From contig DASVQE010000052.1 in NCBI GenBank assembly GCA_036389275.1, positions 99,637 through 163,636 on the forward strand: DNA of 64,000 nucleotides, written 5' to 3'. The notes under the pieces are model-generated. The model worked only from the letters and a program-made list of their open reading frames with translations, made no database searches and was not told the origin of the DNA. Position numbers and translations under genes: made by a program. This document shows, piece after piece, positions 244-39,058 of this stretch (the stretch's first letter is position 1; each line of letters opens with the position of its first letter). Origin of the DNA: Thermoanaerobaculia bacterium. Its GTDB lineage: Bacteria > Acidobacteriota > Thermoanaerobaculia > Gp7-AA8.

Positions 244-717
244 CTACTCCTGACCAGGGAAGAGGTACGCGCGACGAAAGCCAGGAACGACACGTTCCAT
301 GTTGCTTGCGACCGTTCCCGCGAAGTCGGTGAGTTCCTGATGCAACCAGTGGTCGAGCGTGCTCTGATTCTCAGCAACTGCACGCTCCATGGCGCGCACG
401 AGGTACTCCGGCAAGTGCACGGTGAGCGGCTGCAGCGCGAGCAGCGGCGGCAGCACGCTCGTGGCGTCGGGTCCGAGCGCCTCGTGAATCTCGGCGAGGG
501 TCCAGCGTCGCAGCGCGATGTACGCGACCTGTCGCCACGAGAAGCACCACGAGCCATTCGCTCGGTACGCCTCCCGATCATCGTGCTCTGCTTCGCGGCG
601 CAGCGTACCGTGTGAGAGGCCCAAGAGTCGCGCTGCCTTGGTCAAGCCGTACGACTCTTTGCGTTCGAGAAAAAGCGCCCGAATTCGCTCTCGCTGCGAG
701 TGATCAGCGCCTTGCAT
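244..717 (-). CDS. Helix-turn-helix DNA-binding protein (regulator/excisionase-like)
   Basis: 157-aa ORF with an HTH segment YGLTKAARLLGLSHGTLRR. Antisense + ORFs look low-complexity. Confidence 0.5.
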   Translation of the reverse strand: MQGADHSQRERIRALFLERKESYGLTKAARLLGLSHGTLRREAEHDDREAYRANGSWCFSWRQVAYIALRRWTLAEIHEALGPDATSVLPPLLALQPLTVHLPEYLVRAMERAVAENQSTLDHWLHQELTDFAGTVASNMERVVPGFRRAYLFPGQE

Positions 718-1826
718 AAGACGCTTGTTCGTACCTTAGGCTCGCCAGCTTCTCGTAATGGTTTTTTACGAGATTTGCTCGACCGTATCGCCTCTCCGAA
801 CTCGCGCACCTCGCGCGCGAGGCGCGCCGGAACGCTCACCTCACCAGGCCGCTCGCGCGGGAAGACGTTGTGTCCTTCATCGAAGACGAGGACGTGCTGG
901 AGTTGTTCGCGCGGCGCGCCGCTGCTCTTGCGCAAGAGGAGGACAACTTCGAGCCAGAAGAGGCAGAAGAAGCGCTTCTGGTCATCGCCGAATCCCTGCA
1001 GCTCGAAGACCACGGCACGCCCGAGCAAGTCGGCGACCGGTGTTGCAGTTGTTGCGTTTAATGCTCGGCCGAAGCTGCCCTTCGTCAGCTCCTCCAAGCT
1101 GCGCGTGCTGCTCTCCAGCCACCCGTAGCGTCGACTCCCGCTCTTCGTTGCGTCTAACTCGCGCGCCAGCAACTCGTGCGCGTGCGCGAGCGTTGCTGCG
1201 CTGCCGTGCGGCTCGTGCGCTTGGAGCAGCGCTTCCTTCATGACATTGCGCGCGCCCTGCAGGAGGAGGTAGCTCGTGCTAATGATGTCGCTGAGCGCCT
1301 CCGCCCATTCCTCGAACTCGACACCTGGTGGCGGGGTGAGGGCGTTGATCGAAAGTCGCGCGGTATTGCGTCCAACAGTGAAGACGATGACGTTCTCGCT
1401 GCCCTGGGCGCGGAGCAGGCAGCGGTAGTTGCGCTTGAAGTCGAAGGCCATGAAGGGAATGCCGGCCCCTTGGATTTGGACGAGGAGGTTGAGTAGGAGC
1501 GTGCTCTTGCCCGTGCCTGTTGGCCCGAGGATGAAGACGTGTCGCAGCAGCTCGTTACGCTTCACGCGGAACGGGTAGGGCGGGATGCTGGGGTAGCTGA
1601 CGTTGCCGATGATGAACTCGCCGTCACCAATGAGCGCCGGCGGTGGTGCATCAAGGACGAGTTTCTCATCGCCGACGGCGATGCCGAGGTGCTTGACCGC
1701 GAGGAGCATGAGGAGTTCATCGATCTCGCGTTTGCGCTCAACATCAGCGGTCTGGTACTCGATCCAGAGTAGATCGATCGCCTTCCCGTAGAGTGGCTTG
1801 AGTCGACGAAAGAGATCGGGGAGCAC
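642..1826 (-). CDS. FtsK/HerA/VirB4-superfamily P-loop ATPase (DUF87-like)
   Basis: Walker A GPTGTGKST and Walker B-like VLVFDEGHNVF. Operon-coupled to the upstream coiled-coil gene (stop at 1828 / start at 1826). Confidence 0.65.
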   Translation of the reverse strand: MLPDLFRRLKPLYGKAIDLLWIEYQTADVERKREIDELLMLLAVKHLGIAVGDEKLVLDAPPPALIGDGEFIIGNVSYPSIPPYPFRVKRNELLRHVFILGPTGTGKSTLLLNLLVQIQGAGIPFMAFDFKRNYRCLLRAQGSENVIVFTVGRNTARLSINALTPPPGVEFEEWAEALSDIISTSYLLLQGARNVMKEALLQAHEPHGSAATLAHAHELLARELDATKSGSRRYGWLESSTRSLEELTKGSFGRALNATTATPVADLLGRAVVFELQGFGDDQKRFFCLFWLEVVLLLRKSSGAPREQLQHVLVFDEGHNVFPRERPGEVSVPARLAREVREFGEAIRSSKSRKKPLREAGEPKVRTSVLCKALITRSESEFGRFFSNAKSRTA

Positions 1827-2220: not shown

Positions 2221-3303
2221 CCTGCACCTCGAAAGACGGTCAGTGCGTCACTCGGGAAGACCCATTCGGTCGTTGCTGGATCGAAGAGCAGTTCGTACGC
2301 GAAGCGTGGTCGCAGTGGTTCTCGTTGGTTGCGTACAACGTCGATAAAGTGCCAACTCGTCATGCGCGGGAGCGTGCCCATCGAGCTGAAGACTTGCTGT
2401 GTCAGCGCGTGCGTGCTCACGACGCGCAGGAGCGCTGCATCGTCGCGGATCGGGTAGATGTCGATGCTTGGCGCATGACTGCCGAAGGCGTTGATCATTG
2501 CGCTTAACGCGGTGCCTTCGATGTGCAGAAACATTGGTGTGCCGATCGCGTTGAGCGGTCGGTACCGGATGATGTTCTGTCGGAACAAGCCGGTGTGGTT
2601 GAGCAGCGCGAAGGCTTCCTTCACGTACGATTTCCCGTTCGTCGGGAGGCGTCGCGCGAAGCGCGGCAGATACTCCCATGTGCGCTTCCCCAATCGTGCG
2701 TACACTGCCTCCCAGATCGCAGGCAAGCTCTGTCGCTGCTCCACACTCTCGAAGATCACGGGGATGAGTAGCGGCAGCCGCTCGACAATGTCCCAAACAT
2801 TGCGCATCAGCGCCGAGAATCGTCGGTGGCGTAGGATCAGGATCATTGGTCGCGAGATCTCGGAGCACCTGCCACCCATCGCGCGTCATGATGCTCGTGA
2901 TTCGTGTCGCCGTCGTTCCCTCAGCCTCCGCAAGGAGCGCATCGATCGCTGCTCGCTGCGTTCGCGGGATGAGGCAGTGCAGGTAGAGCGACTTCTCGCT
3001 TGGGCGGCTGACCGTCCATTCGCCGGCTATCGCGTACGGAAAGGTGGTCCATGCCGGCGCCGGGTTCTCCAGGAACAAATGCAAGTGCTCTAGGCCGAGT
3101 GCGCAGAACGAGACATTCGGATAGTAGAGCAGGTCATCCGCGAGTTCGGCTTGCCAGCGGTAGAGCGTACGCGCATCAGGCAGTGATGCTTCGGTGCGCG
3201 CGAACTCCTCGATGCCCACCGCCCGCTGTGTTCGATGGAGCACGCCAAGAAAGTGCAGAACGTTCTTGTTCACTCCGGCCGCCATGATGGTGAGCAGGGA
3301 CAT
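2217..3303 (-). pseudogene. Hypothetical protein, apparently frameshifted near 2880
   Basis: N-terminal 141 aa in the frame of ORF 2248..3303, then convincing coding continues in the frame of ORF 2217..2879. The original frame degenerates into low-complexity sequence after about 2880. Confidence 0.45.
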
Positions 3304-3828: not shown

Positions 3829-3982
3829 ATGACGATCACTGGATCCTGACGTTGTACGAGCGCTATCTCGCACTCTTCGGCGATCCCGCTCCTTCCGAGC
3901 ATCCATTGCCGCTCCACAAGGAAGGATGAACGAATGGGTGGGGGGCGCAGGACCCCTTGTTGCGCCCCGCCATTCCCTCACG

Positions 3983-4726
3983 ATGTTAGAACTCGACAAG
4001 ATACACAACATGGATTGTTTTAGCGCAACGACACAGATCCCCAACGAGGGCGTGGATGCGGTCATTACCGATCCACCGTACCCGAACCGGATGAATCTTT
4101 TCGACGGGTCACTCGTCGACGGCCTCGCGATGCTCTACCTCTCGTGCAAGAAGGCGAAGAAGTACGTCGTCTTCTTCTGGAACGCCTTCGATGTGCCACC
4201 GCCACCGGCAGGATGGCACGAGGTCGCACGCCACGTCTGGCACAAGCCGGATGCGAAAAGCATCACGCATTACGAAGTCATCGTGTGCTGGAGCAAAGAA
4301 AGCAGGCAGAAGGTGAGCAGAGTGTGGAGCATTCCCATCCTCGACTACCGCAGCCTGCACGACTGGAAACCACACCCCACGCAGAAGCCGGTGAAACTTC
4401 TGCGCTACCTCCTGGAGCAATACACCACCGAAGGTGAGACCGTCTTCGACCCGTTCGTCGGCAGCGGCACGACGGCCGTCGCCTGCCAGCAGATGAAACG
4501 GCACTTCATTGCCTGCGAGAGCAATCCCGAGTACGCCGCCATAGCAACGAGCCGCCTGAAAGAACCAGCTCCGGAAATCGCACCCGCAACACCGGTGCCT
4601 GACGAGCAGGAAGGACCTGATGAAATCACCCCGGAGACAGCCGACGATGCACCAGCACCACCCGCACGACCGAAACGCAAACGCGCCGTAAAAACACAGG
4701 CCGTCACGCCACAGGTGAAGGCATGA
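3983..4726 (+). CDS. Beta-class N6-adenine/N4-cytosine DNA methyltransferase (pfam N6_N4_Mtase-like), orphan
   Basis: MLELDKIHNMDCF…DAVITDPPYP (motif IV) precedes HPTQKPVKLL…FDPFVGSGTTAVAC (motif I). The ORF is open from 3926. No adjacent restriction endonuclease recognised. Confidence 0.85.
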   Translation: MLELDKIHNMDCFSATTQIPNEGVDAVITDPPYPNRMNLFDGSLVDGLAMLYLSCKKAKKYVVFFWNAFDVPPPPAGWHEVARHVWHKPDAKSITHYEVIVCWSKESRQKVSRVWSIPILDYRSLHDWKPHPTQKPVKLLRYLLEQYTTEGETVFDPFVGSGTTAVACQQMKRHFIACESNPEYAAIATSRLKEPAPEIAPATPVPDEQEGPDEITPETADDAPAPPARPKRKRAVKTQAVTPQVKA

Positions 4727-4974
4727 GCACAGTCGAAGAACTCACGAAGCGCGTGAGCATGCTCGAAGAAACCGTCAGCCACCTTACGACGCACCATGAT
4801 GAGGAATTCCTCATGGTCCACGACGACGTGACCGCGGACACGTGCGACCGACTCTTCAACGTAAACCTGCGCGAGGCACGTCAACGCGAACGCACGAGAA
4901 GCAACGACGATCGGCAGCACCGTGCAACACACCGCAAACGGCGAGTGGTCACGACGAAGCGCAAGGCCGGCTGA
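4723..4974 (+). CDS. Small hypothetical coiled-coil protein
   Basis: 83 aa. Start overlaps the MTase stop (ATGA). Confidence 0.3.
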   Translation: MSTVEELTKRVSMLEETVSHLTTHHDEEFLMVHDDVTADTCDRLFNVNLREARQRERTRSNDDRQHRATHRKRRVVTTKRKAG

Positions 4975-5366
4975 CATTTCGCTTAACGCCAATGTCAGGC
5001 GGATCAACGAAAGAACTAAATACTTCGCGCGCAACCGCTGCGGGTGAGAAGGTCGTGTGACCGCCACCCGCGGCAGTCGCATGCGCCGGCAGTGGTTGCA
5101 AAAAGCAACTCCTTCGGGCCTGGGCGTTGTCTCTTTCGTCGAACGCCGAGGGTATGTCGCGACGTCGACCGCCGATGGCTGCTGACGCATGAACGTCGGC
5201 ATGTCGTCTGCCGCCGCTTGGCAGCGGCGTGTCACGCGACCTTTATCAACTAGCAACGGTGATGCGAGATGGTGACGTTTGACATCCACAACTACGAGGA
5301 GAAGTTCCAGCAGGTAACACAGCAGGTGCTGCGCAGCGAGATCAGTCAGCGCAACAAGATCTCATC

Positions 5367-6575
5367 ATGGGCTACCGTGATGCATGCATCCTCCAGCAGA
5401 CCTGCGGGAAAGTACGCCTGATCCGCGCACTCGGCGTCCTGCTTCTCTGCGCGCGACGGCTCGTGAAGGATTTCGATCAGGCAACTCGTGATGACCTGCA
5501 GCGTCTCGTGAGCAACATGCTGACGAAGCAGCCGCCGTACAGCCCCGAGACGCTCGGCACCTACAAGGCAATCATCAAGCGCTTCTACACATGGCTCGCC
5601 GCGCCCACCGAATTCAATGCGCGAGCAGTCGCGCCGCCGATCGTGAACTGGATCACGACACACGTTCGCGCACGCGACAAGAAGAAGCTTCAGCGCAACC
5701 AACTCCTCTTTCCGTCCGACATCGAGCAAGTCATGAATGTCACGCAGAACGCACGCGACAAAGCGCTCCCCGCCGTCCTCTGGGAGACCGGCGGCAGAAT
5801 CGCGGAGATCGGTAACCTGCAACTCAAGCACCTCACGAAGACGGACGTCGGCTACACCCTGGAGGTTACCGGGAAGACCGGCACGCGGACCGTGCTCATC
5901 GTCAGCAGCGCACCCTTGCTCACGCTCTGGCTCAACGTGCATCCCTTCCGCGCCGATCCGGAAGCACCGCTGTGGGTGCACTACCAATTCAGCAAAGAGC
6001 CGCTGCAACTGAAGTACGACACGATCCGCAACATGCTCGTGAAGCAGTTCGCACGCGCAGGCATCCCGAAGCGGGTGTACCCACATCTCTTCCGCCACTC
6101 ACGCGCGACGTACGTCCTGGCCACCGGACTGATGACCGAAGCGTAAGCAAAGGCGTACTTCGGCTGGACACCGAACAGCGACCAACTCGCCACGTACGCA
6201 CACCTCCTCGCGAGCGACGCGAACGCGGCAATCCTGCGAGAAAACAAGCTTGTGCCAACGCGCGAAGTCCACGAGGAACTGCAGGCAAGGCAGTGCTACC
6301 GGTGCGCGGAACTCAACGCGAGCAATGCGGACTACTGCACGAAGTGCAACGCTGTGCTCAACCTGCAGAAGGCGTACGAGCACCAGCAGCTGCATGACGC
6401 GAAGGAGACGCTCCTCACCAGCATGTTCAGATTCTCGTGGAGCGAGGACTCGTGGATGACGCCGCGCGCGCCGTGCACGAAGCGGGTCTGGGGGAGACGC
6501 TCAAGCGTCTCGCCCTGCACCACTCAGGTGAGCAGAACATCGCCGCAAGCACGCCGACGCTTTCGCCGAACGTGA
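5367..6575 (+). pseudogene. Tyrosine recombinase (phage-integrase family) interrupted by an in-frame TAA at 6144..6146. C-terminal Zn-ribbon-like extension.
   Basis: N-terminal SAM-like domain. RHSRATY box II, then a TAA stop. The in-frame continuation reads KAYFGWTPNSDQLATYAHL (canonical catalytic-Tyr region), then CYRCAELNASNADYCTKCNAV (CxxC…CxxC). Downstream frames are scrambled. Confidence 0.75.
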
Positions 6576-6720
6576 ACAAGAACCACCTGCCGGTGAAACA
6601 AAAGCAGTGCTGTGAAACGAGAAGCGTGAAGAAAGACGAAGTCGTCCGGATTCAGGCAGTTACGTGCGCGTACACCCGCCGTGAACAGCGAGAGACTTCG
6701 CACAACGCGAAACCACGCGA

Positions 6721-6920
6721 GATTTCGTCTAACGCCCTCTCCGCATGTCACTTAGCGCCGCGCATGTTTCGTCTAACGTCGTTTCGCTTCACGCGTCGTT
6801 CCCCCCTTTTTCCCTTTTCATCCCGCCAGCAGGCGGGTTCCCACTTTCTCCCGGCCCGCAGGCCGGGCAATCCAATCGCCCCGCGATAGCGGGGACACTC
6901 ATCCAATCGTCCCTTGGGAC
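6721..6920. other. Intergenic cluster of direct repeats (TTTCGTCTAACG x2) and four consecutive GC-rich stem-loops
   Basis: Hairpins cccgcc-agca-ggcggg (6822..6837), cccggcc-cgca-ggccggg (6850..6867), ccccgc-gata-gcgggg (6879..6894) and gtccc-ttg-ggac (6909..6920). A recurring ATCCAATCG follows two of them. Confidence 0.4.
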
Positions 6921-6964
6921 AGCAAATCCCCATCACCCCGCAACGCCACCACGAGTAGAATTTC

Positions 6965-9900
6965 GTGTCACTCTACGGGAGGAGACAATTCGCAACGACG
7001 ACCACCAATAACCGCCACCACGATCCGCGCGGCAGCACCTGGCGCCGCTGGGACCTGCACGTCCACACGCCAAAATCGTTCGTCCAACACTACCCCGGCG
7101 GCGATACCCCCGCCGGATGGGAAGCCTTCCTCACGGACCTCGAACACCTCCCGCCAGACATCAAGGTGCTCGGCATCAACGATTACCTATTCATCGACGG
7201 ATACGAACGCGTCCTGAACGAAAAGCAGCAAGGGCGACTCGCGAACATCGACCTAATCCTGCCCGTCATCGAACTACGCCTCGACAAATTCGGCGGCACT
7301 GACTCGCACCTCAGCCGCATCAACTACCACATCATCTTCAGCAACGAACTCACGCCCACCGAGATCCGCGAGCAATTCCTCAACCTCCTCACCGCCGACT
7401 ACACGATCGGCGAACCATTCAACAACGTCATCAACACGACCACCCTCACGGAGCTAGGACAGCAACTCATCGACGCAACGCCACCAGCAAAACGCACGAG
7501 CGAACAGCCACTCACCGTCGGTTACAACAACCTCAACTTCCACCTCGCCAAGATCGAACAGCTCTTAGAGAACACGACGTTCACGAACAAGTTCCTCACG
7601 GCCGTAGGCAAAACCGAATGGGCAGACGTGAAGTGGCAACAAGGTGCCGCAGACAAACGCACGATCATCGACCGCGCTGACTTCGTCTTCGTCGCAGCGC
7701 AAACACCTGACCACTGCCGCAAGGCGCACGACGCACTGCGCGCCGAAGGAGTCAACCACCGACTACTCGACTGCAGCGACGCGCACTACCCCAGCAACAG
7801 CACACACAAAGACCGACTCGGCAACTGCTACACCTGGCTCAAAGCCGACACCACGTTCGACGGCCTCCGCCAAGTACGCCATGCCCCAGGAGAACGCATC
7901 TTTCTCGGGGACATGCCACCGAAGCTCCAACTCATCAAACAACAACCCACAAAATTCATTACCGACATCGAAATCCGCCGAAAGCCCTCCGCTCCGATAA
8001 CGGAGCAATGGTTCAACAACCAGCTGCCGCTCAACCCCGATCTCATCGCGATCATCGGCAACAAAGGAATGGGCAAGAGCGCACTCACCGACATCATCGC
8101 GCTGACGAGCAACGCCGAAGCAGACCCACAAACTTACGGCTTCCTGACCGAGCACAAGTTTCGCGACCGCAAAGACAACAAGGCACGACACTTCACCGCA
8201 ACCACCACATGGGCAAGCGGCGACGCCATCAACCGCGGGCTCGACGAGAACGTGCCGAGCGGCACCGTCCCCATGGTCAGGTACATCCCGCAAAACTATT
8301 TCGAAGCCCTGTGCAACGAAACCACGAACGCAGCACGCCTGCAGCATGAGCTCCGCAGCGTCATCTTCAGCAACCTCTCCGCAGCGCAACGAGGCAAGTT
8401 CGCCGACCTTGATTCACTCATCAAGGCGCACACGAACGAGGCGGCACGACACATTGACGAGCTACGGGCAGAACTACACACCGTCAACCGCCACATCGCG
8501 CAACTCGAACGCGATCTCTCAACGACAAAACGCAAAGAACTCGAAGACGCGCTCCAGCAAGCAGAGGCAGCGCTCGCAGCACACGACCAGAATCAGCCGA
8601 TGCCCGTTTCCGCACCTACGCAGCAGGCAAGCACGCCAGACCTCGACGCGACACGCAAGGAACGCGATGAACTCGATCAGCGCATCGCCGCGGAACGGCT
8701 CCACTTGCAGGATCTCACGAAACACGCACCCGCACCCGAAATCTTGTTGCGCGCTTTCGCACGCTGCAAGAGACGATTGCAAAACTCCGCACGAGCGTCA
8801 CGACCGACCTCCAGCAACTCGGCATGAGCTTCGAGCAACTGCTGCCCGCAAGCGTCAACCTGCAACCACTCGAAGAGCACACGGCGGCAACCGAAGAGCA
8901 AATTGCAACCACCGAAGCGCTCCTCGACGGCACCGACGGTCTCATCGCCACACATGCCGCGCTTCTCACGCGAATCGCCAAACTGCAGGACGCACTCGAT
9001 GCACCCGCCCGGGCATACCAGCAGTACCTCGATCACCAGAAGCAATGGGAGCAACAGCGCACCCGCATCATCGGCAGCACAGACACACCCGGATCAATCG
9101 AGTACCTCAAGGCACGACTCACCACAGTGCGCAACGCCCAAGTAGAACAGCTCGCGGCGCTCGATGCAGAACGCCTCGACCTCGCGCGCGCCATTCACGA
9201 GCAACTCCGCAGCATCACCACATTCCAAGCAACGCTCTACGCCCCCGCCGCAGAAAGGCTCGCAAATCATGCTGTCGTTCGAGCACAGCTGAACGTGAAC
9301 TTCACCAGCAAGCTTGTGGACACCGGACTCGCGCCACAGTTCATGAAGCGCATCAATCGAGCACGAATCGGCAAGTTTAGCGAGGAGCACGCGATGCGTG
9401 ACCACCTCACGCCCTTCGACCTTGACAACACCGACGACATCGAACAGCTCCTCCGTACCACTATCGAACTCCTTCACCAAAAACCGCATGGTGAACCGAG
9501 CGACATCGACGACGTGCAGCGACAGCTGCGCAAGGACGAGAAAGCAGAGGACCTGTACAACTTCCTCTTCGGGCTCGAGTACCTCGACCCACAATTCGCG
9601 CTTCGAATCAACGATCGCGAACTCGCACAACTCACCCCGGCGAGCGAGGCAGCCTTTTGCTCGTCTTCTACCTCGTCATCGACCAGGACGATCGGCCGCT
9701 CATCATCGACCAACCCGAGGAGAACCTGGACAACCAGAGCGTCTTCGAACTCCTCGCGCCCTGCATTACCGAAGCAAAGCGCCGGCGACAAATCATCATG
9801 GTCACGCACAACCCGAACCTTGCTGTCGTCTGCAATGCCGAGCAGGTCATCTGGTGCAGGATCGCGAAGGACACGGACCACGCCGTCACGTACGAGACCG

Positions 9901-10004
9901 GGAGCATCGAGAATCCCTCGATCAACAAGCACCTCGTCGACGTTCTCGAAGGGACGTGGCCCGCCTTCACGGACCGCGGACACAAGTACCATCAGTGGTC
10001 CTAG
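6965..10004 (+). pseudogene. PHP-domain phosphoesterase fused to an SMC/SbcC/RecF-like ABC ATPase with a long coiled-coil. The reading frame is broken twice (near 8740 and near 9650).
   Basis: N-terminal WRRWDLHVHTPKS (PHP). Walker A IIGNKGMGKSALTD. Coiled-coil middle. After the frame changes, Walker B/D-loop LIIDQPEENLD and H-loop IMVTHNPN. Three consecutive ORFs (6965..8827, 8824..10311, 9657..10004) join into one about 1010-aa protein. Confidence 0.75.
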
Positions 10005-10036
10005 GGCGCGCACTGGAGTGCTCGGTGCGGGCCGCG

Positions 10037-10153
10037 CTACCAGCGCGCACCCCAATCGCCGCACCCGCACGAGCAGACCCAGACGGGCCAGTCGATCCCG
10101 TCCTCACGGTCGGTCATCAGCCGAATCGGATGATCGTGGTGGTAGGCAGCCAT
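10037..10153 (-). CDS. Small Cys-rich peptide (38 aa) ending …VWVCSCGCGDWGARW
   Basis: ATG start right after the stop of the neighbouring small ORF. C-terminal CxCGCG-W motif paralogous to the neighbour. Confidence 0.3.
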   Translation of the reverse strand: MAAYHHDHPIRLMTDREDGIDWPVWVCSCGCGDWGARW

Positions 10154-10155
10154 GC

Positions 10156-10332
10156 TTACCACTCTCCGCCGCACACGGTGCAGTAGACGATCTCGTGGTC
10201 GTCAGCGGTGAGGTACGTGTCGAGCCGGTGCTTGTGGTCGAACGCCTCCGGGATGGGATCATACGGTGGGCGGTACCCATCAGGCGCGAGTTGGCGCGGT
10301 GGTGTGCGTAGGTAGGTGCTGTGCTGGTTCAT
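10156..10332 (-). CDS. Small Cys-rich peptide (58 aa from the internal ATG, 80 aa from the track start) ending …VYCTVCGGEW
   Basis: GGAGG Shine-Dalgarno 8 nt upstream of the ATG at 10332. C-terminal CxxCGG-W motif. Confidence 0.4.
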   Translation of the reverse strand: MNQHSTYLRTPPRQLAPDGYRPPYDPIPEAFDHKHRLDTYLTADDHEIVYCTVCGGEW

Positions 10333-10833
10333 GGGGTTGTCCTCCGAAAGAGCGATCGTTGCTCTTTCAGCGGGGCGACTCGTGCGCATCCCACACACGA
10401 AGCTATCTCGCCAGCGACCGAATTGGTCGCAGCGGGACCTCGCCAGGCATCACGTCGTCGCGGTGGCGAAAGATTCGCTGATCGTGCGGTGCGCACCACC
10501 GGTCCGAAGCGCAACCATCGCCAGGAGGACGAGCCAGAAGAACACCGCTGACGTGAAGGATCGCAAGAAACCCCGGCAACGCCTGAGCGCGTGAGACGCT
10601 TCCTCCGGGGCGATTTGCTCAACTTCTTAGCACACTCCCAACCCGGCTGCCTGGCGTCGATTCCGAAATTCAAAGGTAGGGAAATTCCTTTCGGCGTCAC
10701 TCCTCCTATTGAACGGCTGCTTTGGGTCCAAGCGTTCATCGCAACACTTCCCGGCTCGGAAAGGTATCGCGGGAGTTGGCTTCACGCGGTGATGCGTGTT
10801 TCCTCACCGGCCGGCGACTCGGGGAGGATCTTG

Positions 10834-26433: not shown

Positions 26434-26776
26434 GTCGGTCGAGACGACGAGTGTCGAGCGCACGAGCGTGGACGGCACTCTCATCCTCGCCCTGACGGAA
26501 ACGATCAAGATCAACGCTCTCACTGGCGCGCGCGAACTGACGAAAGACGAGGCGCGCGGGACGACGAGCGATGGTCGCGTCATCGACGACAAGTCCCGCC
26601 TTCGCGTCTGCGAGACGTGTCGCAGCTTGCTTTCGGCGGCGCGGGAGTGCGCAGTCTGTTTGCGTTCCGTCTGCGGACGGTGCGTCCGCCGCGTCCAGCG
26701 CAACGGTCAAGGATTGGAGGTGTGCACGTCATGTCGGTGGCGCACGTTGCCGAGCGAACTCCTGCGACTCTCGTAA
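26393..26776 (+). CDS. Cys-rich zinc-finger protein (4x CxxC)
   Basis: CETC…CAVC…CGRC…CTSC. Confidence 0.45.
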   Translation: MTALPPNPYLPTNESVETTSVERTSVDGTLILALTETIKINALTGARELTKDEARGTTSDGRVIDDKSRLRVCETCRSLLSAARECAVCLRSVCGRCVRRVQRNGQGLEVCTSCRWRTLPSELLRLS

Positions 26777-28130
26777 CGGACGAGCAACTTCGCCGCGAGC
26801 TCTCCTTCGCCGAGGAGTACGACCTCTCGCGCTACGACCGGTGGGTCGCAAGCCTCGTGCAGACCATCGGCAGCGCACCAGGGGCGGTCGCGCACCAGCG
26901 ACTGCGCGCTGCACTCGTGGCGCGAATACAGCCCTACCACGCATGTCATGAGGCGGTTCCGTTCGCAACACTCGACGGGCTCGATCGCGGCGGCCTCCGC
27001 CTCGGCGCGCAGCTCGCCGATCAGTCGCCCGTGACGCTCGGCCGCGAACTTGAGCATGTCCTCGTCTACGGTCCGACCGGCAGCGGGAAGTCGCACCTCC
27101 TGGCGCATCTCCTTCGCTCCGTGCTCGAACACCAGGAGAGGGCAATCGTGCTAGACGCCAAAGGCGATACGCCATGGATGCTGCAGCACGACGCGCTCTC
27201 CCTCAATGATCTCGAATTTTCCCTCGTCGCGAGCCCACCGTACGCATCACCGACAGAGTTCATCAATCGCTGGCTGATGCACTTTCGCGAATCCTTCTGG
27301 ACCGCCGAACTCCAGAGCGCGGTGCTCCTCCCGATCCTGCGCGAGATGATCCACCCCGGCCGCGCTGCGTCACTTGCCGAGATCGTCGACCGCATTCGGC
27401 TGCGCGACAAATCGCCAGCAGGCAAAGCCGCTGCTGATCGTTTGGAAAGTATCAGCCTCTCGTACCCGAAACTCTACGAGAGCACGGCGGACCGCTGGAG
27501 CGAACTGCATGAGCAGTCGCTCTACTGCCCGACCATCGGCACGCTGACGCCGGCAACGCGATTCGTCACGTGGCTGCTCATCATCGAGCGCTTCGCGTAC
27601 CTCCAGCACCGAGCGCACCGTGATCGCGTGCACACCGTCGTCTTCCTCGACGAAGCGCAGACGAGTTTGAGCAAGCGCACGCAAACGATCTCTGGCCTGC
27701 CGAGCACGCCCGTGCAACTCCTTCCTACGACGCGCGAGCATGGCCTGCAGTTCGTCGTTGCAACGCCATCATGGACGGAACTCGACCCGCTCGTCCTCTC
27801 CCAATTCCAGGTCCAGATCGCCCTGCAGCCAAGTGATGGGCGCGAACTTGATTCCATCACGAAAAGCTTTCGCCTAACACCAGCGCAGGCGCGGCTCACC
27901 AGCAGCATGCAGCGCGGCACCGCGCTCGGGAAGATTCGCGGTATCGGTCAGCCCTTCCTCTTCACGTACGAACCATTTCGCGAGCAGAAGGATATCGATC
28001 CCGCAACCGTTAGTGCAGCACGCGCGCGAGCTGAACGATTTTGCGATGCGTCCAACAGCGCAGCGAAGGAAGGGATCGCGAGCAACGGGCAGCCGACGCC
28101 GGCGGAGAGTCCGCGCCGTCATCCTCACCA
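26731..28130 (+). CDS. FtsK/HerA-type P-loop ATPase (putative DNA-transfer ATPase). The 3' end is uncertain.
   Basis: GGAGG Shine-Dalgarno plus ATG at 26731. Walker A VYGPTGSGKSHLL, Walker B VVFLDEAQ. The frame becomes low-complexity after about 28120, so there may be a frameshift fusion with the downstream wHTH gene. Confidence 0.65.
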
Positions 28131-28778
28131 CCGTCACGCGTTGCGCCGGTGGTGGAACAAACCAATCCGCCTAACACTGCAAAAACGCTTTCGCTCAACG
28201 AGCGCGAGCGCAAGATCCTCACGTACATCGCACAACGTGGCGTCCTCCTCGTCACCGAACTCCACGCAGAGCTGCACCTGCACGCGATGCAAGAAAGCAG
28301 AACGAGAAAAAACCTGCGCGCCCTCGGCCTCATCGAAGAGCATCGCATCACGACACGATCCGGCCGCGGCGGCACAAGCGTCGCCCTCACACTCACGCAA
28401 AAAGCACACGAGGAACTCCACCTACCAAAAGCGCATCTCGGCAAAGGCGGACCAGCGCACCGATACTACCTCCGATGCTTGCGCGATCATCTCGGCGCCA
28501 CACTCGAAGTGCATGAGACAGACGCGGTCGTTGCGTACAACAGCAAATGCCACGAACGACTTCAGAAGGCACTCGGGATCGCGGTCAACGACGGCGACAC
28601 AATCGGGATCGAAGTCGAAGTGAGCAACCCGCGGATCACCGCAACGCGTATCGCCGAACGTAACAAGCATTTCGCCCACATCATCGTTGCGACCTTGCCG
28701 CAGCACCTCGCGGCATTGCGCTCAACACACCCGCACGTCGTCAGCATCCTCGATCTCCTTGACGAGGTGCGCGCATGA
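28041..28778 (+). CDS. Winged-helix DNA-binding protein, replication-relaxation-like
   Basis: LSLNERERKILTYIAQRGVLLVTELHAELH…LGLIEEHRITT. The N-terminal 40 aa overlap the ATPase frame. Confidence 0.45.
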   Translation: MRCVQQRSEGRDREQRAADAGGESAPSSSPPSRVAPVVEQTNPPNTAKTLSLNERERKILTYIAQRGVLLVTELHAELHLHAMQESRTRKNLRALGLIEEHRITTRSGRGGTSVALTLTQKAHEELHLPKAHLGKGGPAHRYYLRCLRDHLGATLEVHETDAVVAYNSKCHERLQKALGIAVNDGDTIGIEVEVSNPRITATRIAERNKHFAHIIVATLPQHLAALRSTHPHVVSILDLLDEVRA

Positions 28779-29100: not shown

Positions 29101-30161
29101 ATGCGTGGTGATGGGCGCCTCTTCCGACGAGCACGTTCACCGTTCTGGTGGATGAGCTACTACCTCGACGGTCGCGAGTATCGAGAAAGCACCGGCACGA
29201 CGGAAGAGAAACAAGCGCGCAAGGCGCTGCGCCTGCGCCTGCAGGAAGTCGCCAACGACAAGAGCGGCATCCAACCGTTCCTCGGTCCCGGCGCGAGCGC
29301 ATCAACGACCTGCTCGATGAGTTGGCCCAGGACTACCGCGTCCGCGCGAAGCTCTCAGCGACCGTCGTCTCGCACCTCAAACGTATCCGCGCACGCTTCG
29401 GTACTGAACGCGCAGCGCAACTCGACGCCAAACAGATCGACTCCTACATCGCTGAGCAACTCGAAGCCGGTGTCGCTCCAGCAACGATCAACCGTGGCAC
29501 CCAACTCCTTAGCCAGGCGTATAACCTCGCGCTCCTGCGCGGCAGGCTCACGAAGAAGCCGCACATCAGAAAGCTCCCGGAGAAAAACATCCGGCAGGGA
29601 TTCTTCGAACACGATCAGTTCCTCGCAATCATCGAGCACCTCCCCGAGCACCTGCGCGACTACTGCCGTTTTGCGTACCTTACCGGCTGGCGACGGGGGG
29701 AATGCTCCAGCCTCACGTGGGAAGACGTTGACCAACGCTCGCGACTCATCCACCTGCGACCGGAGCGCAGCAAGAACGGCCACGCGCGCAAAGTCGCACT
29801 CGAAGGAGAACTGTGGGAGATCATCCAGCGCCGCTTGAGCGAGCGCGTAGTGACGCGCAAGAGCGGCGCGACGACGATGCTGCGCTATGTCTTCCACCGC
29901 GACGGACACCCTATTGGCGAGTTCAAGAAGTCCTGGGCGACCGCGTGCAACGCAGCAGGGCTCGGGCACAAGCTCTTCCACGACCTCCGCCGCACCGCCG
30001 TCCGTAACATGGTCCGCGCGGGCGTTCCTGAGAGCGTCGCGATGAAGATCAGCGGACACCGCACCCGCGCCGTCTTCGACCGGTACAACATCACCGACGA
30101 ACGAGACCTTCGCGACGCGATGCTCAAGACACAGATATATCTGCAGGAATCGGCGCGATGA
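29101..30161 (+). pseudogene. Tyrosine recombinase/integrase with a frameshift near 29285
   Basis: Arm-binding-like N-terminus (GDGRLFRRARSPFWWMSYYLDGREYRESTGT) in one frame, then the core (LTGWRRGE…HDLRRT…GHRTRAVFDRYN catalytic Tyr) in another. Confidence 0.8.
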
Positions 30162-34479: not shown

Positions 34480-35556
34480 GTGCGAAAATTGCACCGAACG
34501 GCTGCAATTTGTGCAGCCTACGACTGCATGTGCGAGAAGCCCATCACATTCACCGGCGTCGTCGGCAAATCGGCCGGACGGCGCGTCTTCCTCGGCTTCG
34601 CGCCGGCGAAGGTGCTGCACGCCATCAGCTTCGCGGATGTGCTGAACGAGGATACCGGGAAGGGCTACCAGCGCCGCCTGAACCAGCAGCACAGCCTCGA
34701 CTTCCGAAAATACATCCAGAAGCCCGGGGCCGCGACCATCCCGCTCACGCTCAACGCCCGGCCCTGCGCGGACGATACGTGGAAGGTCACGACTAGCGGC
34801 GCCGTGGCGAAGCTCACGATCTGCGCGGGCGCGGGGCGCGTGCTCACGCAGATCGATTGCCAGCACCGGCTGGGGAGTCTCCACGACGTGGAGACGGAGC
34901 TGCCGTTCATGTGTTTCCTCGGCCTCGACGAGCGCGAGGAAATGGAGATTTTTAGCGTCATCAACAGCAAGGCGAAGGGCCTGAGCCGCAGCCTGCTTGA
35001 CTTCCACGCCGCGACGCTGGCCGAGAACCTCGCGACCGAGCGCCCCGAGCTCCTGATCGCACTGCACCTCAACGCCGATGCGTCGTCTCCGTGGCACCAG
35101 CAACTCGACCTCGGCGGCACGACCACGTCGGGCCTGAAGCGGCGCGCCTCACTGCGGACGATGCAGAAGGCGGTGAAGCACTTCCTCGCGCAGGCGAAGC
35201 TCGGGAAGACCACGGACATCGAAGTGCTCGCGGGCGCTGTCCTGGCGTTCTGGTCGGCGGTCGCGCAGGTACTGGAAGACGCATGGCGCGAGCCGCGGCA
35301 CTACCTCGTGAACAAGGGCGTCGGCGTGTACGCCCTCATGGCGATTGCAGGTGATCTCGTGCAGGAAGCGCCGAGCGTGGCCTCCTGCGATAAGCGCTAC
35401 TTCGTCGCCAAGCTCTCGGAGTTCCTCGCGAACGTCGACTGGTCGACGGATGGGACCTTCAAGGGGCTCGGCGGTGAGGCGGGCGTCAAATACGCGGTGG
35501 CGCAGGTCCGCTCGGTGCGCAAGAAGAGCCGCATGAAGGTGGTACGTCGTGGCTAA
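34480..35556 (+). CDS. DGQHR-domain (DndB-like) protein
   Basis: GKGYQRRLN…, TQIDCQHRLGSL (a DCQHR variant of DGQHR). N-terminal ITFTGVVGKSAGRRVFLGF. Confidence 0.6.
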   Translation: MRKLHRTAAICAAYDCMCEKPITFTGVVGKSAGRRVFLGFAPAKVLHAISFADVLNEDTGKGYQRRLNQQHSLDFRKYIQKPGAATIPLTLNARPCADDTWKVTTSGAVAKLTICAGAGRVLTQIDCQHRLGSLHDVETELPFMCFLGLDEREEMEIFSVINSKAKGLSRSLLDFHAATLAENLATERPELLIALHLNADASSPWHQQLDLGGTTTSGLKRRASLRTMQKAVKHFLAQAKLGKTTDIEVLAGAVLAFWSAVAQVLEDAWREPRHYLVNKGVGVYALMAIAGDLVQEAPSVASCDKRYFVAKLSEFLANVDWSTDGTFKGLGGEAGVKYAVAQVRSVRKKSRMKVVRRG

Positions 35557-37138
35557 CAAGAACATCCTGCTGATCGAGCCGGGGTACAAGAACAAGTACC
35601 CGCCGCTGGGCCTGATGAAGATTGCCCAGTACCACGGGCCACGAGGAAAGCGCGACAACGTGCGCTTCATCAAGGGTGAAGACCGCTCCGTGCTCACCAC
35701 GGCGTGGGATCGGATCTACGTCACCACGCTCTTCTCTTTCGAGTTCGATCGGATCGAGCGCAGCATCGACTTCGCGATATACGTGGCGAACGGCCATCGC
35801 GACCGCGTGTTCGTCGGCGGTATCGCGGCGTCCCTGATGCACGAGCGCTTCCTCTCCGTCGCGAAGTGGCGTGGCGTGCGATTTATCAAGGGCCTGCTCG
35901 GTGAAGCGCCAGCGAAGTCCCTGCAGCTCGACTCCTTCTCCGAAGAGCTGTACTCCGACGATTTCACCGGCTCGGCGATCGAGGACTTGGTGCCGGACTA
36001 CAGCATCCTCGATCAGATCGACTACAAGTACCCGGTGAGTGATGCCTACTTCGCGTACGCTTCACGCGGATGCATCCGCAAGTGCACGTTCTGCGGCGTC
36101 CCGAAACTCGAAGGGGATCAGCGCGACACCGAATCGCTGACGGCGCTCGTGAAGAGCATCGATCAGCTCTACGGCGAGAAGAAAGACCTGACGCTCATGG
36201 ACAACAACGTCGTGGCGTCACCGACCTTCCGTGAGCTCATTGCAGAGATCCGAGACTTGGGGTTCGTACCGGGCGCGAAGTTGAAGCGTGGACGCGTGCC
36301 GGTGCAGCGCCGCGTGGACTTCAACCAGGGCGTGGACGCTCGCATCCTCTGCAAGTCGCCGATGTACCTCCGGGAACTGTCGACCATCTCTATCAAGCCG
36401 CTCCGGATCGCGTTCGATCACCTCGGACTGAAAGGCCCATACGAGCAGGCGATACGCTACGCGCGCGAGTTCGGGCTGACGGAGCTCTCGAACTACATGC
36501 TCTACAACTTCCATGACACGCCGACCGATCTCTACGAGCGCATGGTCCTCAACGTGAAGCTCAACGAGGAACTCGGGATGCGCATCTGGTCGTTCCCCAT
36601 GCGCTACCAGCCCACGGACCTTCCGAACCGGTCGCACATCGGCAAGAACTGGTCGCGCTACCAGCTGCGATCGATGCAGCTCATCCTGCAGGCTACGCAC
36701 GGCATCGTGAGCGGCGAGCCTGACTTCTTCTATCGCGCGTTCGGCGCGAACGCCGATGAGTTCCGCGACATGCTGCTGCGGCCTCATCACCAAATCTTCA
36801 ACCGTGAGTGGTACGAATTTGGGGATGGCCGAGCCGACTACCGTGAGTTTCGTCGCGCGTTCGCGAAGCTCACCGAGAGTGATCGTGCCGAGCTGGTAAC
36901 ACTGCTGTCGTCGTGCGATCCGAAAGACTTCAAGTCGCTGCCGAAGCAAGCGACATCAAGCGCCGTGAAGAAGGTGTTGCCGTTGTACATCCCGATCTCG
37001 AAGGAAGAGGAGGCGTCGATTTGGGCGAAGCGGCGCGCGGAGGTGGCGGCGGTGTCCGACGAAGAGCGCGTCGAAGATGCTGGTCTCGAAGATGACGATC
37101 AGATGGCGTTCCCGTTGGCGGCAGGTGCACGCGCATGA
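35549..37138 (+). CDS. B12-binding-domain radical SAM enzyme (class-B-like)
   Basis: N-terminal NILLIEPGYKNKYPPLGLMKIAQY. CxxxCxxC cluster YASRGCIRKCTFCGVP. GTG start overlapping the upstream stop. Confidence 0.8.
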   Translation: MANKNILLIEPGYKNKYPPLGLMKIAQYHGPRGKRDNVRFIKGEDRSVLTTAWDRIYVTTLFSFEFDRIERSIDFAIYVANGHRDRVFVGGIAASLMHERFLSVAKWRGVRFIKGLLGEAPAKSLQLDSFSEELYSDDFTGSAIEDLVPDYSILDQIDYKYPVSDAYFAYASRGCIRKCTFCGVPKLEGDQRDTESLTALVKSIDQLYGEKKDLTLMDNNVVASPTFRELIAEIRDLGFVPGAKLKRGRVPVQRRVDFNQGVDARILCKSPMYLRELSTISIKPLRIAFDHLGLKGPYEQAIRYAREFGLTELSNYMLYNFHDTPTDLYERMVLNVKLNEELGMRIWSFPMRYQPTDLPNRSHIGKNWSRYQLRSMQLILQATHGIVSGEPDFFYRAFGANADEFRDMLLRPHHQIFNREWYEFGDGRADYREFRRAFAKLTESDRAELVTLLSSCDPKDFKSLPKQATSSAVKKVLPLYIPISKEEEASIWAKRRAEVAAVSDEERVEDAGLEDDDQMAFPLAAGARA

Positions 37139-38968: not shown

Positions 38969-38980
38969 GATCAATCGAAG

Positions 38981-39058
<78 letters not shown>

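What the first reader, a model, noticed from the sequence alone, without database searches (positions are those of the whole stretch)
6965..10004. PHP phosphoesterase fused to an SMC/OLD-like ABC ATPase, split by two frameshifts
A single roughly 1010-aa product can be reassembled from three consecutive ORFs. It has a PHP N-terminus, Walker A, a long coiled-coil, then Walker B and the H-loop after the frame changes near 8740 and 9650 (the latter at a TTTT run). ATPase-plus-nuclease fusions of this logic (OLD, Lamassu, Gabija) are anti-phage effectors. PHP as the effector domain is uncommon. The two indels make it either a decaying defense gene or an assembly-error hotspot.
Basis: seen in the sequence. 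Interest (0 to 1): 0.6.

Follow-up and report, generated by a model that had tools for sequence, protein, structure and literature searches.

The report
Broken TrlF nuclease-ATPase gene
This is a recently inactivated copy of a known, widespread bacterial gene (TrlF family: a PHP-fold domain of the kind that acts as a nuclease in related proteins, fused to an SMC-like ATPase, related to the anti-phage protein Ppl), sitting in a decaying mobile element; it is a real pseudogene rather than an assembly error, and otherwise ordinary.

Summary
Three collinear ORFs (6965-8716, 8719-9638, 9639-10004) rebuild one 1013-aa protein. It matches NCBIfam NF045780 (TrlF family AAA-like ATPase) end to end: 628 bits against a cut-off of 350.

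The N-terminus has a PHP fold by AlphaFold2 and Foldseek, hitting RNase AM and Pol III alpha PHP domains. The rest is an SMC/Rad50-type ABC head split by about 290 residues of long helices.

Both frameshifts are 1-nt deletions. They lie after 8716 (not in a homopolymer) and in the C-run 9635-9638, not at 8740 or at the TTTT run.

They are real. The sequence is 100% identical in contigs from JGI, ENA and two Logan per-run assemblies (two SRA runs).

A 95%-identical element from another sample carries an intact 1015-aa allele that is 97% identical in protein. dN/dS is 0.086 and all 126 invariant residues are kept, so inactivation is recent.

The same element also has a thrice-frameshifted integrase, a truncated DUF87 ATPase and another split gene. 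The whole element is decaying, inside a ~40.7-kb tRNA-Met island of a Thermoanaerobaculia MAG.

Anti-phage function is inferred only, from distant Ppl homology and from R-M and integrase neighbours. Novelty is low.

The parts
6965..8716 (+). trlF pseudogene, piece 1 (aa 1-584). It holds the PHP domain, the N-lobe of the ABC ATPase and the start of the helical insert.
   Evidence: NF045780 positions 1-541, E 1.6e-97. tblastn of the intact L004 TrlF aa 1-584 gives 98.8% identity in one frame.
7028..7960 (+). PHP-fold phosphoesterase domain (aa ~22-332). The candidate metal-ligand motifs are HxH at 7058-7066 (H32, H34), E103, H122 and DAH at 7778-7786 (D272, H274).
   Evidence: AF2 model pLDDT 86.3, pTM 0.84. 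Foldseek PDB top hits are 9etk and 7ug9 (RNase AM) and 4jom, 3e0d and 2hpi (Pol III alpha PHP), probability 1.0, E 2e-5 to 1e-3. These residues are invariant in 35 homologues, except H32, which is nearly invariant (at least 90%).
8057..8080 (+). Walker A / P-loop, GNKGMGKS (aa 365-372).
   Evidence: G365, N366, G368, G370, K371 and S372 are invariant in the alignment. Read directly from the sequence.
8716..8717 (+). Frameshift 1: a 1-nt deletion between these two bases (GATCTC|ACGAAAC). It is not in a homopolymer or repeat.
   Evidence: The alignment with L004 shows a T here. L002 and L003 also carry one more base. The frame changes between aa 584 and 585 of the intact orthologue.
8717..8827 (+). 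Out-of-frame tail of ORF1: 36 nonsense codons and a stop.
   Evidence: The translation of ORF 6965-8827 departs from all orthologues after ...LHLQDL.
8719..9638 (+). trlF pseudogene, piece 2 (aa ~586-892). It holds the long-helix (coiled-coil-like) insert and the first part of the ABC C-lobe. It has no start codon of its own at the junction; the first ATG is at 8824.
   Evidence: NF045780 positions 569-826, E 7e-18. tblastn of L004 TrlF aa 585-898 gives 92.7% identity in the second frame. In the AF2 full-length model of the 86%-identical P0001, helices span 482-768.
9631..9650 (+). ABC signature motif L-T-P-G-E-R-G, cut by frameshift 2.
   Evidence: Read directly from the sequence. P893, G894, E895 and G897 are invariant in 34 homologues, and R896 is nearly invariant (at least 90%).
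9635..9638 (+). Frameshift 2: a 1-nt deletion at a C4 run (ACCCCGG). L002 has C5 and L004 has ACGCCCGG.
9639..10004 (+). trlF pseudogene, piece 3 (aa 893-1013 plus stop). It holds the rest of the signature motif, Walker B/D-loop PLIIDQPEENLD (9696-9731), H-loop His (9807-9809) and the C-terminal domain.
   Evidence: NF045780 positions 835-944, E 3e-56. PADLOC Ppl positions 786-888, E 4.3e-12. Pfam AAA_21, E 3.4e-5.
5272..6612 (+). Context: the tyrosine integrase of the same element. It is also a pseudogene, lying in four frame pieces after three 1-nt deletions.
   Evidence: tblastn of the intact 450-aa L004 integrase. Indel list. Pfam Phage_integrase on the 259-aa remnant.
642..1826 (-). Context: the DUF87/HerA-like ATPase of the element, truncated to aa 1-347 of 643 by a ~960-bp deletion at 786/787.
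3926..4726 (+). Context: an intact N6/N4 DNA methyltransferase of the element. It is conserved next to the integrase and trlF in L002 and L004.
   Evidence: Pfam N6_N4_Mtase. PADLOC MTase_II, E 5.5e-35.

Best explanation
The region is a recently inactivated copy (pseudogene) of a TrlF-family gene. The intact gene is a single ~1015-aa ORF. It encodes an N-terminal PHP metal-dependent phosphoesterase/nuclease domain fused to an SMC/Rad50-type ABC ATPase. The ATPase head is split by ~290 residues of long helices.

Two independent 1-nt deletions break the frame, one after 8716 and one in the C-run 9635-9638. The second separates the signature motif and Walker A from Walker B and the H-loop, so no functional ATPase can be made.

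The gene is the cargo at the integrase-proximal end of a ~10-kb integrative element carrying a DUF87 ATPase, a DNA methyltransferase, a tyrosine integrase and trlF. That element is itself decaying. It lies inside a ~40.7-kb composite island at a tRNA-Met gene of a Thermoanaerobaculia (Acidobacteriota) MAG.

Inferred, not shown (about 0.5-0.6): when intact, it works as a stand-alone, Ppl-like immune nuclease. The ABC head would bind nucleotide and dimerise through the helical arms to sense or clamp DNA ends. The PHP domain would degrade nucleic acid exonucleolytically when licensed.
For: Family and collinearity:
- The three pieces hit NF045780 in order, and the provisionally repaired protein scores 628 bits against a cut-off of 350 over the whole profile.

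Folds:
- The N-terminal model has a PHP fold.
- The full-length model of the 86%-identical P0001 has an SMC/Rad50/JetC/LmuB-like head with long helices.

The deletions are real:
- The window is 100% identical over 12.6-18.8 kb to contigs from JGI 3300034173, ENA ERZ27253125, Logan SRR10953297 and Logan SRR10948745.
- The pieces are also deposited in an NCBI MAG as HEX8170985.1 and HEX8170987.1.

The intact state is the norm:
- L004 (95.4% DNA identity, same element) has an uninterrupted 1015-aa gene, 97% identical to the repaired protein with no gaps.
- L002 and L003 are also intact.
- 76 of 80 species-representative loci show a single-frame match, 75 of them full-length and one cut by a contig end.

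Inactivation is recent:
- dN/dS for window versus L004 is 0.086. Intact-to-intact pairs give 0.083-0.097.
- All 126 invariant columns are retained.

The element is decaying:
- The integrase lies in 4 frame pieces, the DUF87 ATPase has lost 296 aa, and another gene is split.
- Every small indel in 4900-10100 except one 40-nt block at the start of the aligned stretch (probably an end effect), and all nine 1-nt indels, are deletions in the window.

Defence inference:
- There is homology to Ppl, with the same domain order (NF042955 94.7 bits, E 3.7e-27; PADLOC Ppl E 8e-9 and 4e-12).
- Ppl is an experimentally supported single-gene anti-phage ssDNA 3'-5' exonuclease that is inhibited by NTPs (PMC12904381; PMC11482910).
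- TrlF genes have no conserved partner. The commonest neighbours in 33 loci are integrases, ResIII/SWI2_SNF2 and DNA methylases.
- Single examples sit beside a type IIG methylase with HsdR nearby (L009), at a prophage end (L011) and on plasmids.
Against: - No read-level data could be inspected, so minority intact alleles in the same population cannot be excluded.
- The samples that share the broken allele may come from one site or study. They show reproducibility of sequencing and assembly, not several independent populations.
- The defence role is untested for any TrlF member that I could find.
- The only paper found that uses the name (Photorhabdus temperature-restricting locus, bioRxiv 10.1101/2020.06.02.129163) assigns no phenotype to trlF, and there trlF is linked to trlG, which is absent here.
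- The Ppl match is far below the Ppl family cut-off (94.7 vs 1000 bits).
- The neighbourhood survey has no statistical control.
- The window's own island carries no recognised defence system apart from a methyltransferase.
Confidence: 0.88

Rival explanations
1. Sequencing or assembly artefact. The gene is intact in the organism and the two missing bases are errors.
For: Site 2 lies in a short homopolymer (C4), a context where some platforms drop bases. No reads could be inspected.
Against: - The sequence is identical in contigs from JGI, ENA (MEGAHIT-style names) and two Logan per-run assemblies from different SRA runs.
- Site 1 is not in a homopolymer.
- Four genes of the same element carry lesions, including a ~960-bp deletion, while the small neighbouring genes are intact.
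Confidence: 0.03
2. Programmed recoding (two -1 ribosomal frameshifts or transcriptional slippage), or three genuinely separate functional genes.
For: Both shifts are in the -1 direction. At site 2, a P-site slip of tRNA-Pro on C-CCC-G would restore the conserved LTPGERG (my reading).
Against: - The closest relatives (L004, L002, L003) and 76 of 80 family members are read in one frame (75 full-length, one cut by a contig end), so no conserved recoding site exists.
- Site 1 has no slippery heptamer or homopolymer.
- Piece 2 has no start codon until 8824, and piece 3 would start with TTG inside the signature-Walker B segment.
- Splitting there leaves no complete nucleotide-binding site.
Confidence: 0.03
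3. Reversible phase variation. The gene is switched off by slippage and can switch on again.
For: Costly defence genes are sometimes phase-variable. Site 2 is a short C tract.
Against: - C4 is far below the tract lengths that slip at useful rates.
- Site 1 is not repetitive, and two hits would both have to revert.
- The same state is seen in every assembly of this strain.
- The integrase and other genes are broken in the same way.
Confidence: 0.02
4. The identity is right (a TrlF pseudogene), but the family is not an immune nuclease. It would serve DNA repair or stress physiology, as the Photorhabdus temperature-restricting locus or Rad50/SbcCD-like end processing might suggest.
For: - The name appears to come from the TRL operon, which limits growth above ~34 C and carries no phage phenotype.
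- The fold resembles Rad50, RecN and SMC repair ATPases.
- L010 lies among housekeeping genes.
Against: - The distribution is patchy and the genes are carried by mobile elements, plasmids and prophage ends.
- There is no conserved partner or conserved locus.
- The family is homologous to Ppl, and the domain logic matches known defence ATPase-nucleases.
- Disruption is frequent: 3-4 of 80 representatives.
Confidence: 0.3

Closest known systems
TrlF family AAA-like ATPase (NCBIfam NF045780). By its name, apparently taken from trlF of the Photorhabdus laumondii temperature-restricting locus trlR-trlF-trlG.
   Same: The repaired protein matches the family profile over its full length, above the curated cut-off (628 vs 350 bits). 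It has the same ~1015-aa PHP plus split ABC ATPase architecture. RefSeq annotates the plasmid homologues with this name.
   Different: - The window copy is broken by two frameshifts.
- No trlG-like (AlbA_2 + HATPase_c_4) or trlR neighbour is present here, and none ranks among the common neighbours of 33 other loci.
- I could not compare it directly with the Photorhabdus protein. The link between the NCBIfam name and that paper is inferred from the name.
Ppl (PplA), the single-gene anti-phage system of E. coli (NCBIfam NF042955; PADLOC PDLC02208).
   Same: The domain order is the same: PHP phosphoesterase, then an ABC-type NTPase. There is detectable homology in the segment running from the end of the PHP domain into the Walker A region and in the ABC C-lobe (E 3.7e-27). 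Both are stand-alone genes on variable or mobile contexts.
   Different: The score is far below the Ppl cut-off (94.7 vs 1000 bits), so this is a sister family, not Ppl. The Ppl profile is shorter (882 positions vs 944). Ppl's biochemistry (ssDNA 3'-5' exonuclease, NTP inhibition, 3'-OH end sensing; PMC12904381) is untested for TrlF.
Spaf_1101 family AAA-like ATPase (NCBIfam NF045781).
   Same: It is a third curated family with similarity in the Walker A region and in the ABC C-lobe (110 bits).
   Different: The score is below that family's cut-off (475), and the profile is shorter (836).
Rad50-Mre11 / SbcCD, and SMC-type defence ATPases (JetC of Wadjet, LmuB of Lamassu, AriA of PARIS).
   Same: An ABC head with Walker A and Walker B/signature on either side of a long helical insert, paired with a metal-dependent nuclease. 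These are the top structural matches.
   Different: - Here the nuclease is fused in cis and has a PHP fold, not a calcineurin-like (Mre11/SbcD), Toprim (JetD, OLD, GajA) or Cap4/other LmuA effector.
- The helical insert is short (~290 aa).
- No partner genes are present.
- PADLOC LmuB, GajA and AriA hits are weak and partial.
PHP exonucleases: RNase AM (YciV) and the Pol III alpha / PolX PHP domains.
   Same: These are the best structural matches of the N-terminal domain. The His/Asp/Glu motifs are conserved at the positions that typically bind metal.
   Different: Sequence identity is only 10-15% and TM-scores are modest (0.36-0.60). Those proteins are not fused to an ABC ATPase.

Membership tests
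TrlF family AAA-like ATPase (NF045780) | Whole-protein HMM score above the curated cut-off (350 bits), with end-to-end coverage. | tested here: met
   The provisionally repaired protein scores 628.1 bits, with residues 22-1010 on profile positions 1-944 of 944. The separate pieces score 328, 65 and 192 bits in collinear order.
TrlF family AAA-like ATPase (NF045780) | N-terminal PHP-fold domain with conserved metal-ligand motifs. | tested here: met
   AF2 pLDDT is 86. Foldseek hits RNase AM and Pol III alpha PHP domains at probability 1.0. H34, E103, H122, D272 and H274 are invariant and H32 is nearly invariant. The Pfam PHP HMM itself gave no hit.
TrlF family AAA-like ATPase (NF045780) | ABC/SMC-type ATPase with Walker A, signature, Walker B and H-loop, split by a helical insert. 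| tested here: met
   The motifs are read in the sequence and are invariant in 34 homologues. The full-length model hits MukB, Smc, JetC, Rad50 and LmuB.
TrlF family AAA-like ATPase (NF045780) | One uninterrupted ORF (a functional gene). | tested here: not met
   Two 1-nt deletions are present. The window copy is therefore a pseudogene of the family, not a functional member.
Photorhabdus TRL operon (trlR-trlF-trlG) | Linkage of trlF to trlG (AlbA_2 + HATPase_c_4) and to a small regulator, trlR. | tested here: not met
   No such neighbour appears in the window, L002 or L004. Neither family is among the 25 commonest Pfam families in the neighbours of 33 loci.
Ppl anti-phage protein (NF042955 / PADLOC PDLC02208) | HMM score above the curated cut-off (1000 bits). 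| tested here: not met
   The score is 94.7 bits, E 3.7e-27, in two partial stretches. PADLOC Ppl gives E 8e-9 and 4.3e-12 on the pieces. The protein is homologous to Ppl but is not a member.
Ppl anti-phage protein (NF042955 / PADLOC PDLC02208) | Protection against phage; NTP-inhibited ssDNA 3'-5' exonuclease activity. | not testable with these tools
   These properties are known for E. coli Ppl from the literature only (PMC12904381, PMC11482910).
OLD / Gabija GajA (ABC ATPase + Toprim nuclease) | C-terminal Toprim nuclease domain. | tested here: not met
   No Toprim hit appears in Pfam or PADLOC. The GajA and ATPase-Toprim hits (E 1e-4 to 1e-2) cover only the Walker B/H-loop segment.
Lamassu (LmuB SMC-like ATPase with LmuA effector and LmuC) | Separate LmuA effector and LmuB/LmuC genes, with an LmuB HMM match. 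| tested here: not met
   Only weak LmuB hits were found (E 3.7e-4 and 1.3e-4). No LmuA or LmuC neighbour is present. The structural resemblance is limited to the SMC-like head.

The most novel reading that the evidence does not exclude
TrlF would be a distinct, very widespread single-gene immune nuclease: more than 2,400 homologues, found in Acidobacteriota, Proteobacteria, Bacteroidota, Firmicutes, plasmids and prophage ends. It has never been tested. It would be related to Ppl, but with its own trigger.

This locus would then capture its natural loss together with the loss of its carrier element's integrase, that is, fixation and decay of a defence-carrying element.

The extreme and conserved C3>>G3, A3>>T3 synonymous bias of this TrlF clade could reflect selection on the gene's own nucleic acid, for example avoidance of self-targeting or of structured mRNA.
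Probability: 0.3. Interest if true: 0.4.

Novelty: new member of a known kind. Interest (0 to 1): 0.15.

Why it matters
It matters little for discovery. The gene belongs to a curated family, and this copy is dead.

It is useful in three smaller ways:
- **A worked example.** Several independent public assemblies plus a 95%-identical intact allele can separate a real pseudogene from an assembly error without any reads.
- **A gap in knowledge.** The TrlF family (PHP nuclease plus SMC-like ATPase) is abundant, mobile and still without experimental function, although its relative Ppl is a proven anti-phage nuclease.
- **Material for a test.** There is a natural pair of alleles, intact P0122 and the broken window copy.

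Tried and rejected
- **Pfam on the three ORFs.** There was no PHP hit and only sub-threshold AAA_21/SMC_N hits. The PHP claim had to be tested by structure.
- **PDB sequence-profile search.** It returned only ABC ATPase C-lobe/P-loop hits (AriA, Rad50, LolD). No PHP hit and no close solved relative appeared, and the fold search of the full-length model returned no PHP-plus-ABC fusion.
- **First repair of junction 1 at 8740.** It was rejected after DNA alignment to the orthologues placed the deletion at 8716/8717.
- **Two DNA-pattern scans of metagenome contigs across each frameshift site, allowing 0 or 1 extra base.** Neither found a match, so allele frequencies could not be measured that way.
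- **Literature.** 'TrlF' mostly returns TRLFS spectroscopy. 'TrlF family' returns nothing. Only the Photorhabdus TRL preprint uses the gene name.
- **Promoter/terminator scan of 6500-10700.** There was no promoter-like site, and terminator-like sites were at the chance level.
- **Search for a conserved partner gene in 33 loci.** None was found.
- **PADLOC on ten other island proteins.** Only the methyltransferase and a weak protease-domain hit appeared, so the window is not a classical defence island.
- **Phage collection.** Only one partial full-architecture hit was found (Microcystis phage Mwe-JY31, 42% coverage).
- **Considered and rejected.** Programmed -1 frameshifting, phase variation and OLD/Gabija membership (see the rival explanations and membership tests).
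Full report
**1. What is in the sequence**

The + strand of 6965-10004 carries three ORFs in three frames: 6965-8827, 8824-10311 and 9657-10004. Scanned separately against NCBIfam, they hit one model, NF045780 'TrlF family AAA-like ATPase', in collinear order:
- Profile positions 1-541, E 1.6e-97.
- Profile positions 569-826, E 7e-18.
- Profile positions 835-944, E 3e-56.

A first repair of the two frame changes gave a 1013-aa protein that matches the profile from position 1 to 944 with 628 bits, against a curated cut-off of 350.

**2. Where the frameshifts are**

DNA alignment with three relatives that read through in one frame places both lesions precisely. The relatives are L004 at 95.4% identity, L002 at 84% and L003 at 83%.
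- Lesion 1 is a 1-nt deletion between 8716 and 8717 (GATCTC|ACG; L004 has a T there). It is not in a repeat or homopolymer.
- Lesion 2 is a 1-nt deletion at the C-run 9635-9638. L002 has C5 and L004 has ACGCCCGG.

The conserved signature G-E-R-G-S-L-L-L is already in the third frame from 9639. With one base restored at each site, the protein aligns to the intact L004 product (P0122, 1015 aa) at 97% identity without a single gap over 1011 residues.

**3. Real mutation or artefact**

The window is 100% identical over 12.6-18.8 kb, both deletions included, to four contigs:
- JGI metagenome 3300034173 (151,613 bp).
- ENA assembly ERZ27253125 (151,616 bp).
- Logan per-run assembly of SRR10953297.
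- Logan per-run assembly of SRR10948745.

The pieces are also deposited in an NCBI MAG as HEX8170985.1 and HEX8170987.1, 'Thermoanaerobaculia bacterium', in the phylum Acidobacteriota. Different pipelines and at least two runs give the same sequence, and site 1 is not error-prone. I therefore reject the assembly-error reading, with the caveat that I could not see reads.

**4. Recent inactivation inside a decaying element**

Nei-Gojobori dN/dS between the repaired window gene and L004 is 0.086. This cannot be told apart from pairs of intact genes, which give 0.083-0.097. All 126 columns that are invariant in 34 intact homologues are kept. Almost all divergence therefore accumulated under purifying selection, and the frameshifts are young.

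The lesions are not confined to this gene. Measured against the proteins of the L004 element:
- The tyrosine integrase (450 aa) lies in four frame pieces (5272-6612), after three 1-nt deletions.
- The DUF87/HerA-like ATPase keeps only residues 1-347 of 643, after a ~960-bp deletion at 786/787.
- A 362-aa protein is split into two frames.
- The methyltransferase and several small genes are intact.
- Every small indel in 4900-10100 except one 40-nt block at the very start of the aligned stretch (probably an end effect), and all nine 1-nt indels, are deletions in the window.

This is the pattern of an immobilised mobile element that is eroding.

The element lies within a larger island. An 89-bp direct repeat comprises the 3' half of tRNA-Met plus its downstream hairpin. 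One copy sits just upstream of the window (L001 1310-1397) and the other at window 38938-39026. They delimit about 40.7 kb of lower G+C: 0.58-0.65 inside against 0.65-0.71 beyond. The island holds a second, intact integrase and a second DUF87/TrwB-like ATPase.

**5. What the protein is**

Pfam's PHP model did not hit, so I tested the fold. An AlphaFold2 model of residues 1-350, built with 35 sequences, has pLDDT 86 and pTM 0.84. Foldseek against the PDB returns only PHP proteins at significant E-values: RNase AM (9etk, 7ug9) and the PHP domain of Pol III alpha (4jom, 3e0d, 2hpi, 4iqj). H34, E103, H122, D272 and H274 are invariant in the family and H32 is nearly so.

A full-length model of the 86%-identical intact homologue P0001 has pLDDT 85. 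It shows, in order:
- The PHP domain (25-330).
- An ABC N-lobe with the P-loop.
- Four long helices (482-768).
- The ABC C-lobe.

Its best structural matches are MukB, Smc, JetC, Rad50, LmuB, RecN and AriA. 'OLD-like' is not, because there is no Toprim domain.

**6. The family and its context**

The protein search returned 2,400 homologues with E below 1e-3, mostly ~1015 aa. A scan of species-representative genomes gave more than 454 relatives across many phyla. Of the 80 loci fetched, 76 show a single-frame match, 75 of them full-length and one (L087) cut by the end of its contig; 3-4 are disrupted. Nineteen plasmids carry full-length copies, most of which RefSeq annotates as 'TrlF family AAA-like ATPase'.

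There is no conserved partner. Among 132 ORFs flanking 33 loci, the commonest Pfam families are Phage_integrase (4), ResIII (4), N6_Mtase (3), N6_N4_Mtase (3) and SWI2_SNF2 (3), followed by resolvases, type I specificity and HsdR domains, XhoI, AbiEii and TrwC. Single cases lie beside a type IIG methylase with HsdR nearby (L009), at the end of a lambda-like prophage (L011), or among housekeeping genes (L010).

In the window's own clade (window, L002, L004) the gene always follows the methyltransferase and the integrase of the same kind of element. This is the distribution of a mobile accessory gene, compatible with defence. I ran no statistical control.

**7. Comparison with what is known**

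The name appears to come from the Photorhabdus laumondii 'temperature restricting locus' trlR-trlF-trlG. There, mutations in trlG (AlbA_2 + HATPase_c_4) lift a growth ceiling near 34-36 C, and no phenotype was assigned to trlF (bioRxiv 10.1101/2020.06.02.129163). That this is the source of the NCBIfam name is my inference. No trlG-like gene is near the window copy or common near other members.

The nearest characterised relative is Ppl, a single-gene anti-phage system with a PHP domain and an ATPase domain (PMC11482910). A 2026 review describes it as an ssDNA 3'-5' exonuclease. NTPs bound to both domains keep it inhibited, and it responds to nucleotide depletion and to 3'-OH ends (PMC12904381).

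The window protein is homologous to Ppl (94.7 bits, E 3.7e-27) but far below the Ppl cut-off of 1000 bits. It is a sister family, not Ppl. I therefore propose, at about 0.5-0.6, that intact TrlF works in a Ppl-like manner. The steps from nucleotide sensing to nuclease licensing are inferred, not shown.

**8. Rivals**

- Programmed -1 frameshifting is unlikely. The relatives lack any shift, site 1 has no slippery sequence, and the split falls between the signature motif and Walker B.
- Phase variation is unlikely. C4 is short, site 1 is non-repetitive, and the neighbouring genes are broken in the same way.
- A non-defence role for the family (repair or stress) remains a live alternative for function, at about 0.3. 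It does not affect the identification.

**9. Verdict**

This is a real, recently formed pseudogene of a known and curated but experimentally uncharacterised family, in a decaying integrative element of an Acidobacteriota MAG. Novelty is low and interest is 0.15.

One oddity is unexplained. This TrlF clade has an extreme synonymous-site strand bias (GC3 skew about -0.4, AT3 skew +0.25 to +0.65). It is conserved across dS of about 0.8-0.9 and absent from 76 other family members.

Noticed in passing
window 5272-6612 (+): The tyrosine integrase of the same element is also a pseudogene. Three 1-nt deletions (~5356, ~6429, ~6575) split the 450-aa orthologue into four frame pieces.
   Followed up: yes
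window 642-1826 (-), deletion point 786/787: The DUF87/HerA-like ATPase keeps only aa 1-347 of the 643-aa orthologue. About 960 bp present in L004 (2794-3757) are missing.
   Followed up: yes
window 2223-3303 (-): The homologue of a 362-aa L004 protein of unknown function is split into two frames. This is another frameshift in the element.
   Followed up: partly
L001 1310-1397 and window 38938-39026; tRNA-Met at window 38982-39058 (-): An 89-bp direct repeat (95.5% identity) covers the 3' half of tRNA-Met plus its downstream hairpin. It looks like attL/attR of a ~40.7-kb composite island. G+C rises from about 0.60 to 0.65-0.71 beyond 40 kb.
   Followed up: partly
window 26617-28623 (+) and 29148-30161 (+): A second DUF87/TrwB/FtsK-like ATPase and a second, intact tyrosine integrase (337 aa) lie in the same island. 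This suggests tandem integrative elements at one tRNA site.
   Followed up: partly
window 35549-37138 (+) and 37135-38661 (+): Two overlapping genes sit next to the tRNA-Met. One is a weak radical-SAM-like protein (529 aa) and the other a GHKL ATPase (HATPase_c_3, 508 aa). Neither has a PADLOC match, so this could be an uncharacterised two-gene cargo module. A radical SAM/SPASM gene also follows trlF in L002.
   Followed up: partly
window 6965-10004; also L002, L003, L004, L008 trlF genes: There is an extreme coding-strand bias at third codon positions (C>>G, with GC3 skew -0.38 to -0.46; A>>T, with AT3 skew +0.25 to +0.65). It is conserved across dS of about 0.8-0.9 and absent from 76 other TrlF genes. 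It is unexplained.
   Followed up: partly
window 9214-9613 versus 7015-8614: Divergence from L004 is mosaic: about 15% in the distal helical insert and start of the C-lobe, against 1-1.5% in the PHP and N-lobe region. This suggests recombination between alleles within the gene.
   Followed up: partly
window 6725-6734 and 6769-6778 (+): The decamer TCGTCTAACG occurs twice, 44 nt apart, upstream of trlF (0.29 expected by chance). Similar GCGTCTAACG copies lie just inside attL (L001 ~1404) and in a 41-nt L004-only insert. It may be a binding motif of the element.
   Followed up: partly
L012, L036, L043, L053: Other species-representative genomes also carry disrupted TrlF genes. Three show two-frame matches, and one has a ~1.7-kb insertion. 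That is about 5% of the 80 loci examined.
   Followed up: partly
window 9094-9630 (-): Public gene calls (JGI, ENA, Logan) place a 178-aa antisense 'gene' where the middle piece of trlF lies. This is an annotation artefact caused by the frameshifts.
   Followed up: yes
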